Source of the DNA: Escherichia coli
Lineage (GTDB): Bacteria > Pseudomonadota > Gammaproteobacteria > Enterobacterales > Enterobacteriaceae
Reading direction: 5' to 3' (one strand)
Assembly (NCBI RefSeq): GCF_003334305.1
Contig: NZ_QOWS01000081.1
DNA length: 378 nucleotides
Below are positions 1 to 378 of this stretch, piece by piece (the first letter of the stretch is position 1; every line of letters begins with the position of its first letter). A program made the translations under genes and the position numbers. Below the pieces are notes generated by a model. The model did not search any database, was not told where the DNA came from, and saw only the letters and a program-made list of their open reading frames with translations.

Positions 1-378
1 CGCCTCCCCCGGCAGCAGCGGCTCAAAGTGAATGCTCCGCCCGCCGTTGTCGTTGAGTACCAGTGCATCATCGCGTAGCTGTAAGCGGATATCAGAAGGC
101 GCTTTCCAGCCGGGGCCAAACACTCCCACCGGCGCGGGTGTCCTGGTCCGGTAGCTGCTGTAGGTGCGGGAGAGAATGAACGGCAGCGGGCCGGGCAGCG
201 CAAGGTCCGTCTCGCCGGGCAGCACCTTCGCCCCCAGCAGCGGATTTACCGGGTTGCCCGAAGTCATCCCGCCCGGACACACCGAGCACGCCACGCCGGT
301 GGGCGCGCCAATTCTTACACCTGCCGAACCCTGGACAATGGGACCGCCATACTGAGTCATATCTCCCTGACGCGCCGC
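1..378 (-). CDS. rhs: Rhs-family polymorphic toxin protein, N-terminal portion (PAAR-like domain plus linker); partial at both ends, true start just beyond position 378, gene continues beyond position 1
   Basis: Seen in sequence: the reverse complement read in phase from position 378 gives 126 sense codons and no stop. The translation begins AARQGDMTQYGGPIVQGSAGVRIGAPTGVACSVCPGG, which from memory matches the conserved N-terminus of E. coli-type Rhs proteins (MSGKPAARQGDMTQYGG...), followed by the Pro/Gly-rich stretch LPGETDLALPGPLPFILSRTYSSYRTRTPAPVGVFGPGWKAPSDIRLQLRDD. GC3 in this frame is about 73% by hand count, consistent with a genuine reading frame. The paralog (rhsA/B/C/D-like) cannot be resolved from 378 nt, so only a family-level symbol is given. 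Confidence 0.9.
220..378 (-). other. Region encoding a PAAR-like domain (PAAR_RHS type) at the N-terminus of the Rhs protein; boundaries approximate, and the first residues of the PAAR motif lie outside the window
   Basis: The translation shows the pattern (P)AARxGD...GGPIVQGSxxVRIGxPxxG...C-x-x-C, which resembles the PAARxGD / GSxxVxIGG signature of PAAR repeat proteins. Established knowledge: many Rhs proteins carry an N-terminal PAAR-like domain. The domain end was placed by eye, not by HMM. Confidence 0.55.

What the first reader, a model, noticed from the sequence alone, without database searches (positions are those of the whole stretch)
220..378. PAAR-like domain implies spike-tip (T6SS-type) delivery of this Rhs toxin
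PAAR repeat proteins form the conical tip on the VgrG spike of the type VI secretion system, and Rhs proteins with an N-terminal PAAR-like domain are delivered this way in several Enterobacteriaceae. The motifs AARQGD, GSAGVRIGAPTG and the CxxC pair are visible here. Whether this copy is functional depends on the host encoding a T6SS with a cognate VgrG; some hosts, including E. coli K-12, carry rhs genes without a T6SS.
Basis: partly seen in the sequence, partly recalled or inferred. Interest (0 to 1): 0.45.

Follow-up and report, generated by a model that had tools for sequence, protein, structure and literature searches.

The report
One-third PAAR tag on E. coli Rhs
The window encodes the start of a well-known E. 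coli Rhs toxin whose N-terminus carries only one of the three repeats of a PAAR spike-tip domain, so the link to type VI secretion is real and already published, but calling it a PAAR domain overstates what is there.

Summary
The motifs are real. The minus strand of the window encodes residues 6-131 of an RhsD/E-type Rhs core protein. It is 100% identical to many E. coli chromosomes.

Pfam and NCBIfam place no PAAR domain here: 13.8 bits for Pfam, and 14.4 bits against a cut-off of 124 for NCBIfam. A family profile of residues 1-33 does match solved PAAR proteins significantly (4JIV E 6e-9), but only one 27-residue repeat, the third. Related Rhs proteins carry all three repeats before the same junction and score 62 bits.

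The window therefore encodes four parts:
- one PAAR repeat (residues 4-29);
- a tether that contains the CxxC pair (residues 30-47);
- the conserved N47|P48 junction, which is an autocleavage site in Pseudomonas Tse5;
- the DUF6531 plug (residues 48-123).

The identical 378 bases occur directly downstream of vgrG at the yncH-ydcD locus, and also at the ybbP locus with no vgrG. The host's T6SS status cannot be read from the window.

The literature already calls these proteins "PAAR-Rhs" and calls the Tse5 version "cryptic PAAR-like". How one repeat docks on a trimeric spike is unresolved. AlphaFold2 models were too poor to test it.

The parts
307..378 (-). Single PAAR repeat, protein residues 6-29 (the repeat starts at K4, just outside the window): AARQGDMTQYGGPIVQGSAGVRIG
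   Evidence: A profile of residues 1-33 matches one repeat, the last, of solved PAAR proteins: 4JIV_D 67-93 E 5.8e-9, 4JIW_D E 1.8e-8, 9rce_c E 1.1e-14. HHalign against three-repeat relatives gives 98.5% probability, aligned to their third repeat. Pfam and NCBIfam PAAR models stay below threshold.
253..306 (-). Tether, residues 30-47 (APTGVACSVCPGGMTSGN), which includes the CxxC pair C36/C39 at nt 277-288
   Evidence: It aligns with Tse5-NT residues 30-47. In the Tse5 cryo-EM structure these residues are threaded through the N-terminal plug and anchored inside the Rhs cage (PMC10684867). The same G-x-AC-S-x-CPGG segment follows the complete PAAR in three-repeat relatives.
241..255 (-). Conserved junction N47|P48-V-N-P, the putative N-terminal autocleavage site
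   Evidence: PDB chain 8cp6_B (Tse5 shell) begins exactly at PVNP and aligns from here. Tse5 is cleaved between K47 and P48 (PMC10684867). P48 and V49 are invariant in 35 homologues. Cleavage in the E. coli protein is inferred, not shown.
25..252 (-). DUF6531 domain, residues 48-123, the N-terminal plug of the Rhs cage
   Evidence: Pfam PF20148, i-E 5e-20, full model. It is identified as the N-terminal plug in Tse5 (PMC10684867).
1..24 (-). Residues 124-131, the start of the Rhs shell after the plug
   Evidence: NCBIfam RHS_core NF041261 aligns residues 1-131 to model positions 1-131. The full-length protein scores 2777 bits against a cut-off of 2000.

Best explanation
The window encodes the N-terminal delivery module of an RhsD/E-subfamily Rhs polymorphic toxin of E. 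coli. The module is a Tse5-type 'mini-PAAR', with four parts: one 27-residue PAAR repeat (residues 4-29), an 18-residue cysteine-containing tether (30-47), a conserved X|PVNP junction, and the DUF6531 plug that closes the N-terminal mouth of the Rhs cage.

Inferred mechanism:
- The tether is held in the plug and cage, as in Tse5.
- The exposed single repeat docks the roughly 155-kDa cage on the blunt end of a cognate VgrG trimer.
- The T6SS then fires spike and toxin together.

What is shown here: the sequence anatomy, homology to a single PAAR repeat, homology to Tse5, and gene adjacency to vgrG. What is inferred: VgrG binding through the repeat, cleavage at N47|P48, and the stoichiometry on the spike. 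Where the copy has no vgrG or the host has no T6SS (K-12 rhsD; the ybbP locus), the module has no evident delivery route.
For: - Identity and frame.
- Rhs membership: NCBIfam RHS_core 2777 bits against a cut-off of 2000, and DUF6531 E 5e-20.
- Single-repeat homology to PAAR: phmmer to 4JIV residues 67-93; family profile to 4JIV E 5.8e-9, 4JIW E 1.8e-8, SalCis10 E 1e-14, Tas1 and Tre23, always one repeat; HHalign 98.5% to the third repeat of three-repeat relatives.
- Positive control: the three-repeat relative P0060 gives Pfam PAAR_motif 62.2 bits over the full model. Precomputed Pfam lists PAAR_motif for three-repeat P0113 but for none of the one-repeat representatives.
- Architecture census: about 101 of 119 complete N-termini have 45-51 residues before PVNP, and 6 have 101-108.
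- Tse5 parallel: the same 47-residue N-terminal fragment and the shell chain starting at PVNP. [quoted passage not shown] Tse5/RhsP1 killing is VgrG1c- and H1-T6SS-dependent (PMC4067218).
- Context: vgrG lies immediately upstream. The vgrG-rhs junction is present in 2704 of 5426 E. coli genomes. The same gene order occurs inside the Sakai T6SS island, and none of six short or unnamed ORFs scanned there (five of 73-198 aa, plus a 469-aa protein that matched TssA) matched a stand-alone PAAR model. Distant one-repeat members also follow vgrG.
- Literature: the E. coli proteins are called PAAR-Rhs, and this N-terminus is reported to be required for T6SS translocation (Ma et al. 2017, as cited in PMC7216683, and PMC8651086).
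Against: - No direct evidence here that residues 4-29 contact VgrG.
- AF2 gave no confident structure for residues 1-100 (pLDDT below 60).
- One repeat supplies at most a third of the canonical PAAR-VgrG interface, so stable monomeric capping is not obvious.
- The identical sequence also sits at a locus with no vgrG, sometimes as a pseudogene.
- REL606 keeps the vgrG-rhs pair but lacks the aspV T6SS island.
- In the Sakai copy the GG after the motif is replaced (KGL), so part of the repeat is not conserved.
Confidence: 0.7

Rival explanations
1. It is a complete, canonical PAAR domain that caps the VgrG trimer as a monomeric cone.
For: The literature labels these proteins PAAR-Rhs. A literal KPAAR motif followed by GD is present. 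Six short or unnamed ORFs of the Sakai T6SS island were scanned (five of 73-198 aa, plus a 469-aa protein that matched TssA), and none matched a stand-alone PAAR model.
Against: Only 47 residues precede the cage junction, against about 90 for a PAAR cone. The start codon is fixed by an in-frame stop two codons upstream. Pfam scores 13.8 bits over 19 of 70 positions and NCBIfam 14.4 bits against a cut-off of 124. All matches to solved PAARs cover one repeat only. Three-repeat relatives exist and score normally. Residues 30-47 are homologous to a Tse5 segment buried in the cage, so they are not free to build a cone.
Confidence: 0.07
2. The cap is assembled from three chains. Three Rhs N-termini, from the same or different Rhs paralogues, each give one repeat and together rebuild a three-fold PAAR-like tip on the VgrG trimer.
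For: PAAR is a pseudo-threefold triplication of this repeat. The repeat is strongly conserved although it cannot fold alone: R8 and D11 are invariant, AF2 pLDDT is about 50, and the equivalent Tse5 residues 1-29 are disordered. E. coli genomes carry a median of 3 copies of this N-terminus. VgrG C-terminal ends look alike upstream of one-repeat and three-repeat Rhs genes.
Against: A tandem 3x(1-33) construct did not fold in AF2 (mean pLDDT 36). That is weak evidence, because the construct is artificial. Three 155-kDa cages around one spike tip may clash. The published VgrG-Rhs complex with a full PAAR, as I recall it, is 1:3. No stoichiometry data were found for Tse5 or E. coli Rhs.
Confidence: 0.15
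3. The repeat is an evolutionary remnant that no longer docks on VgrG. Loading would use another surface, such as the plug, the shell, or the conserved VgrG C-terminal tail. In vgrG-less loci the protein is not a T6SS substrate at all.
For: Tse5 has lost the PAAR letters (PVSH, GE) and is still delivered. Many copies lack an adjacent vgrG. VgrG proteins at these loci share a conserved tail, PDMR(E/Q)(Y/F).
Against: PAAR-motif residues are invariant or nearly invariant across homologues down to 51% identity, which indicates selection. The length of the N-terminal fragment is held at 46-48 residues. The Tse5 paper calls the N-terminal fragment's PAAR-like domain necessary and essential for secretion and says its function seems reduced to VgrG spike interaction.
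Confidence: 0.08

Closest known systems
Tse5 (RhsP1, PA2684) of Pseudomonas aeruginosa; PDB 8CP6
   Same: It has a 47-residue N-terminal fragment with one PAAR-like repeat, then a tether, an X|PVNP junction, the DUF6531 plug and the Rhs cage. It is encoded directly downstream of its cognate vgrG (vgrG1c), and delivery depends on that VgrG.
   Different: Tse5 has lost the literal PAAR/GD letters (PVSH..GE) and the CxxC pair (D36..S39, with a single C41). The E. coli protein keeps KPAAR-x-GD and C36/C39. The C-terminal toxins are unrelated. Cleavage and VgrG dependence are shown for Tse5 but were not tested for this protein.
E. coli 'PAAR-Rhs' effectors (Rhs-CT1 to CT10, Ma et al. 2017; EHEC Z0268 'paar')
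   Same: This is the same protein family and the same N-terminus. The Sakai ECs_0237 N-terminus is 316/378 nt identical and has the same layout. It sits in vgrG-rhs-immunity islands.
   Different: Nothing substantive; this window is a member. The published label 'PAAR domain' is broader than the sequence justifies, because only one repeat of three is present.
Canonical PAAR proteins (VCA0105, PDB 4JIV; c1882, PDB 4JIW; Pfam PF05488)
   Same: Residues 2-29 align with the third repeat, 67-93, including PAAR-x-GD and the G-S-x-x-V-x-I-G strand.
   Different: The canonical domain has three repeats and about 90 residues; this one has a single repeat. The position aligned with the Cys of 'DCGG' in 4JIV is Tyr15 here. 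From my own knowledge, that Cys is a metal ligand.
Rhs proteins with a full N-terminal PAAR (three-repeat relatives P0060/P0086/P0113; Photorhabdus Rhs1/Tre23, PDB 7PQ5)
   Same: They share the same tether, junction, plug and cage downstream, and are also preceded by vgrG.
   Different: They carry about 60 extra N-terminal residues, which form repeats 1 and 2. They pass the Pfam PAAR model (62 bits). P0086, P0099 and P0113 have His/His/Cys at the ligand-equivalent positions.
prePAAR effectors (split PAAR; Ahmad et al. 2020)
   Same: In both, an AARxxD motif at the extreme N-terminus belongs to an incomplete PAAR.
   Different: In prePAAR effectors the motif completes a PAAR domain further downstream, after transmembrane helices, and needs Eag chaperones. 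Here there is no downstream PAAR, no transmembrane region, and no chaperone gene between vgrG and rhs.

Membership tests
PAAR domain (Pfam PF05488 / NCBIfam NF033420) | The family HMM matches above threshold over most of the model | tested here: not met
   Pfam finds no hit on the window translation. With the full N-terminus it gives 13.8 bits, i-E 0.068, model positions 51-69 of 70. NCBIfam gives 14.4 bits against a cut-off of 124, model positions 68-94 of 94. Control: the three-repeat relative scores 62.2 bits over positions 1-68 of 70.
PAAR domain (Pfam PF05488 / NCBIfam NF033420) | Three tandem PAAR repeats (about 90 residues) that build a pseudo-threefold cone | tested here: not met
   There is one repeat, and 47 residues lie before the cage junction. 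No upstream extension is possible, because an in-frame stop lies two codons before the ATG.
PAAR domain (Pfam PF05488 / NCBIfam NF033420) | Sequence homology to the PAAR repeat unit | tested here: met
   A profile of residues 1-33 hits 4JIV E 5.8e-9, 4JIW E 1.8e-8 and 9rce_c E 1.1e-14. HHalign gives 98.5% probability.
PAAR domain (Pfam PF05488 / NCBIfam NF033420) | Conical beta fold comparable with solved PAAR structures | tested here: inconclusive
   AF2 on residues 1-147 gave pLDDT below 60 over residues 1-100. AF2 on 3x(1-33) gave mean pLDDT 36. No fold search was justified.
PAAR domain (Pfam PF05488 / NCBIfam NF033420) | Binds the blunt end of the VgrG beta-helix | not testable with these tools
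   There is only indirect support: vgrG adjacency and the VgrG1c dependence of the homologue Tse5.
Rhs element core protein (NCBIfam NF041261) | Equivalog HMM above its curated cut-off, with YD repeats and the Rhs-associated core | tested here: met
   The full-length protein of the 100%-identical locus scores 2777 bits against a cut-off of 2000. YD_repeat_2x matches 9 stretches and Rhs_assc_core is present. The window region aligns to model positions 1-131.
Rhs element core protein (NCBIfam NF041261) | DUF6531 N-terminal plug | tested here: met
   PF20148, i-E 5.2e-20, model positions 1-74 of 74, residues 46-123.
Tse5-type one-repeat ('cryptic PAAR-like') Rhs N-terminus | An N-terminal fragment of about 47 residues, with one repeat and a tether, ending at X|PVNP | tested here: met
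   The layout matches 8cp6_A and 8cp6_B. P48 and V49 are invariant. 95 of 119 complete N-termini have 45-49 residues before PVNP, and about 101 have 45-51.
Tse5-type one-repeat ('cryptic PAAR-like') Rhs N-terminus | Autoproteolysis at the junction, with the tether anchored in the cage | not testable with these tools
   This is shown for Tse5 only (PMC10684867) and inferred here from alignment.
Tse5-type one-repeat ('cryptic PAAR-like') Rhs N-terminus | Cognate vgrG immediately upstream, and VgrG/T6SS-dependent delivery | tested here: inconclusive
   Adjacency holds at the yncH-ydcD locus, and 2704 genomes carry the junction. The identical window also lies at the ybbP locus without vgrG. The source locus of the window is unknown, and delivery was not tested.

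The most novel reading that the evidence does not exclude
The single PAAR repeat is one subunit of a tip built from three chains. Three Rhs N-termini, possibly from different Rhs paralogues in the same cell, would assemble on the three VgrG protomers into a symmetric PAAR-like cap. One spike could then carry up to three Rhs cages, and the one-repeat form would represent the un-triplicated state of the PAAR fold.
Probability: 0.12. Interest if true: 0.65.

Novelty: already known. Interest (0 to 1): 0.22.

Why it matters
As stated, the finding repeats published knowledge. The genes vgrE and vgrG were first named at E. coli rhs loci, and these proteins are called PAAR-Rhs T6SS effectors. This analysis adds a correction of anatomy. 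The N-terminus is one PAAR repeat plus a cage tether, not a PAAR domain, and HMM-based annotation will miss it. That matters for annotation: pipelines that require PF05488 will not flag these Rhs proteins as spike-loaded. It also points to a real but narrow open question, already hinted at by the term 'cryptic PAAR-like' for Tse5: how can a third of a PAAR dock on a three-fold spike, and with what stoichiometry?

Tried and rejected
- AF2 of residues 1-147 with a 35-sequence alignment gave mean pLDDT 59.7, and residues 1-100 were below 60.
- AF2 of an artificial tandem 3x(1-33) with a matching alignment gave mean pLDDT 36. This gives no support for a three-copy cone, but it is not a refutation because the construct is artificial. 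No fold search was run, because both models were poor.
- I looked for a stand-alone PAAR in the Sakai T6SS island by scanning six short or unnamed ORFs (five of 73-198 aa, plus one of 469 aa) with NCBIfam. There was no PAAR hit. Only those ORFs were tested, not the whole genome.
- I tried to establish the host's T6SS status. The aspV region of REL606 has no T6SS island. The tssM of the Sakai-type island is in 2715 of 5426 genomes, against 3872 genomes with the window. Per-genome co-occurrence, and other T6SS types, could not be tabulated with these tools.
- Ma et al. 2017 (PubMed id 27871130) is not held. Its claims are cited second-hand.
- I considered that the ORF might start further upstream and hide more PAAR repeats. 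This is rejected, because an in-frame stop lies two codons upstream.
- I considered K-12 as the source. This is rejected: K-12 rhsD is 366/378 identical, and rhsA and rhsC are 301 and 306 of 378.
- The plus-strand ORFs of the window are shadows of the minus-strand gene.

Full report
**What is in the window.** The minus strand, frame 1, is open over all 378 bases and reads AARQGDMTQYGGPIVQGSAGVRIGAPTGVACSVCPGGMTSGNPVNPLLGAKVL.... It is 100% identical to chromosomal genes annotated as 'RHS element core protein' or 'rhsD' in many E. coli genomes. In total, 3872 of 5426 complete genomes have a match, with a median of 3 copies each. In E. coli C the gene starts 15 bases beyond the window (MSGKP...), so the window encodes residues 6-131 of a 1407-residue protein. 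That protein passes the NCBIfam RHS_core equivalog model (2777 bits against a cut-off of 2000).

Pfam places only DUF6531 on the window translation and reports no PAAR hit even at E up to 10. With the complete N-terminus, PAAR_motif reaches 13.8 bits (i-E 0.068) over model positions 51-69 of 70. The NCBIfam T6SS_PAAR_dom model gives 14.4 bits against a cut-off of 124, over model positions 68-94 of 94.

The resemblance is nevertheless real homology. phmmer of residues 1-47 finds the solved PAAR proteins 4JIV and 4JIW, matching their last repeat. A profile built from residues 1-33 of 32 family members hits several solved structures, and in each case the match covers one repeat of about 27 residues:

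| PDB chain | Protein | E-value |
|---|---|---|
| 9rce_c | SalCis10 | 1.1e-14 |
| 4JIV_D (residues 67-93) | VCA0105 PAAR | 5.8e-9 |
| 4JIW_D | c1882 PAAR | 1.8e-8 |
| 6ox6_A | Tas1 | 1.7e-5 |
| 7pq5_L | Tre23 Rhs | 5e-5 |

**Relatives show what is missing.** I searched 1.8 billion representative proteins with residues 1-131. Of 119 N-termini that begin with Met and contain the junction, about 101 have 45-51 residues before the PVNP junction and contain one PAAR repeat. Six have 101-108 residues and contain three tandem repeats before the same G-x-ACSxCPGG...PVNP junction. One three-repeat relative, P0060, gives a normal Pfam PAAR_motif hit (62.2 bits, E 5.6e-17, model positions 1-68 of 70). 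Precomputed Pfam annotation lists PAAR_motif for the three-repeat P0113 but for none of the one-repeat proteins. HHalign places the E. coli repeat on the third repeat of the three-repeat group with 98.5% probability. A hidden upstream extension is excluded, because an in-frame TGA lies two codons before the ATG and a Shine-Dalgarno-like AGAAGGAA precedes it. The E. coli N-terminus is therefore one third of a PAAR domain.

**Anatomy of the rest of the window.** From residue 48 onward the sequence aligns with PDB chain 8cp6_B, the shell of the Pseudomonas aeruginosa Rhs effector Tse5. That chain begins exactly at PVNP. The Tse5 paper reports the following (PMC10684867):
- autoproteolysis between K47 and P48;
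- a 5-kDa N-terminal fragment (residues 1-47), described as carrying 'a PAAR-like domain';
- residues 1-29 not resolved in the map;
- residues 30-47 threaded through the N-terminal plug (DUF6531, residues 48-124) and anchored inside the cage.

The Tse5 N-terminal sequence recovered from 8cp6_A (MSGLPVSHVGEKVSGGVISTGSPTVHVGSSAVGLADRVSACVPLVGK) has the same 47-residue layout. By homology, the window encodes:
- the single repeat, nt 307-378;
- the tether, nt 253-306;
- the junction N47|P48, with PVNP at nt 241-252;
- the DUF6531 plug, nt 25-252.

It also follows the complete PAAR of the three-repeat relatives, beyond the end of the Pfam match, so it is not part of the PAAR fold. It is at least 90% conserved in the family but absent in Tse5. 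Its role is unknown.

**Genomic context.** That holds at the yncH-vgrG-rhs-ydcD locus, which is the intact form of K-12's truncated rhsE pseudogene locus. It is seen in E. coli C, 720632, M217, ECONIH6 and REL606, with a 66-base gap and no chaperone gene between the two. The upstream protein is a bona fide VgrG: TIGR03361 scores 614 bits, and Pfam finds Phage_GPD, Phage_base_V and Gp5_trimer_C. The vgrG-rhs junction is present in 2704 of 5426 genomes.

The identical 378 bases also occur at the ybbP-rhs (rhsD) locus with no vgrG, where in two STEC strains the gene is a frameshifted pseudogene. That type of junction is present in 2855 genomes. The source locus of the window therefore cannot be known.

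K-12 MG1655 is not the source. Its rhsD is 366/378 identical, and its rhsA and rhsC are 301 and 306 of 378. K-12 RhsD is nevertheless identical over the finding's range and has neither a vgrG neighbour nor, from my own knowledge, a T6SS.

In O157 Sakai, a related Rhs with the same N-terminal layout follows hcp and vgrG inside the T6SS core island at aspV. Six short or unnamed ORFs of that island were scanned (five of 73-198 aa, plus a 469-aa protein that matched TssA), and none matched a stand-alone PAAR model. REL606 keeps the vgrG-rhs pair but has only IS remnants at aspV. The tssM of the Sakai-type island is found in 2715 genomes, fewer than the 3872 that carry the window sequence. Many carriers therefore lack at least this type of T6SS.

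In distant family members, linkage to vgrG is frequent but not universal. The one-repeat P0097 and P0068 follow or sit among vgrG genes, P0112 is an orphan, and the three-repeat P0113 lies within a T6SS cluster.

**Mechanism.** Best-supported reading (confidence about 0.7): this is a Tse5-type delivery module. The tether holds the N-terminal fragment in the plug and cage. The exposed single PAAR repeat docks the cage on the end of a cognate VgrG trimer, and the T6SS fires both together.

Shown here: the anatomy, the homologies and the gene adjacency. Taken from papers:
- Tse5/RhsP1 killing requires VgrG1c and the H1-T6SS (PMC4067218).
- The Tse5 N-terminal fragment's PAAR-like domain is described as essential for secretion.
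- The E. coli 'PAAR domain' is reported to be required for Rhs translocation (Ma et al. 2017, as cited in PMC7216683).

Inferred: that residues 4-29 make the VgrG contact, that cleavage occurs at N47|P48, and the stoichiometry.

A single repeat can supply only about a third of a canonical PAAR-VgrG interface. It is unlikely to fold alone, which is consistent with the AF2 pLDDT of about 50 and with the disorder of Tse5 residues 1-29. I therefore considered a cap built from three Rhs N-termini. A tandem 3x(1-33) construct did not fold in AF2 (pLDDT 36). This gives the idea no support but does not exclude it.

VgrG C-terminal ends look alike upstream of one-repeat (E. coli) and three-repeat (L011) Rhs genes (...HLEL..G.AR.V....G.I...GT.IH..G....GD...I.WN...). 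VgrG therefore does not visibly compensate for the missing repeats.

**Comparison with what is known, and novelty.** The finding restates published knowledge. Long E. coli Rhs proteins are called PAAR-Rhs T6SS effectors, and rhs genes downstream of vgrG are a textbook arrangement (PMC10433429). [quoted passage not shown]

What I add is a sharper description. The segment is a single PAAR repeat, the third, plus a cage tether. It fails the family HMMs. The CxxC pair is outside the repeat. Three-repeat relatives reveal the relationship. I found no paper stating the one-of-three point explicitly, but I searched only the held library.

**Verdict.** Novelty is 'already known', and interest is low (0.22). 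One narrow open question remains: how this mini-PAAR docks on a three-fold spike.

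Noticed in passing
window 1-378; L001:12001-12378 and L007:5001-5378: The identical 378-base sequence occurs at two different chromosomal loci. One is yncH-vgrG-rhs-ydcD (rhsE-type, intact, vgrG upstream). The other is ybbP-rhs (rhsD-type, no vgrG, a frameshifted pseudogene in two STEC strains). This implies recent gene conversion or recombination between rhs paralogues, and it means the source locus cannot be inferred.
   Followed up: partly
L001:12000-17000: Classic Rhs composition. The core is 62-67% G+C (the window is 66%). G+C falls to about 32% in the C-terminal toxin tip and the ydcD immunity region, and is about 35% upstream of vgrG.
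   Followed up: no
L001, near 10120-10160 (VgrG residues 107-120): The E. coli C VgrG carries a tandem 6-residue duplication (NFRIFQNFRIFQ) relative to the Sakai VgrG (NFRIFQ). The two VgrGs also lose similarity in their last 25 or so residues, except for a shared C-terminal PDMR(E/Q)(Y/F) tail whose function is unknown.
   Followed up: no
proteins P0086, P0099, P0113 versus window nt 349-351 (Tyr15): Three-repeat relatives have His, His and Cys at the position after PAARxGDxxx in repeats 1-3. This position aligns with the Cys of 'DCGG' in 4JIV and is probably a metal ligand. The E. coli single repeat has Tyr there, the Sakai copy has Lys, and the three-repeat relative P0060 has Tyr in all three repeats.
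   Followed up: no
proteins P0024, P0025, P0027, P0033 (tether region): Some E. coli-like Rhs N-termini have a variant tether in which CPGG(I/M)T(S/Y)(G/A)N is replaced by CP(K/T)KKDSPNYG(N/S) or CPNSPIEEQKGN. This small indel hotspot lies just before the PVNP junction.
   Followed up: no
proteins P0004, P0012, P0031, P0034, P0041, P0066: Many database 'proteins' that begin with this N-terminus are chimeras or fragments. In some the N-terminus is joined directly to the end of the Rhs core (...HDEESGLYYNRHRHYDP). Others run into IS1 InsA-like sequence. This is consistent with frequent deletion, recombination and IS insertion within rhs genes, or with assembly artefacts in repeats.
   Followed up: no
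L004 (REL606, 239,855-245,000 of NC_012967.1): E. coli B REL606 retains an intact vgrG-rhs pair that is 100% identical to the window. At aspV, where O157 Sakai has its T6SS island, REL606 has only IS1 and ISAs1 elements and a ykfM fragment. The pair is an apparently stranded spike-toxin pair.
   Followed up: partly
L013:207-11989: In a distant genome (GCA_028069655.1) two one-repeat Rhs genes, each with a small downstream gene, lie in tandem after one vgrG. A second vgrG with a DUF2169 gene follows them. This is an array of Rhs effectors sharing one spike gene.
   Followed up: no
L005:8971-10382: The Sakai T6SS island carries a pseudogene (ECs_0219) between tssM and the next core gene, so that island may not be fully functional.
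   Followed up: no
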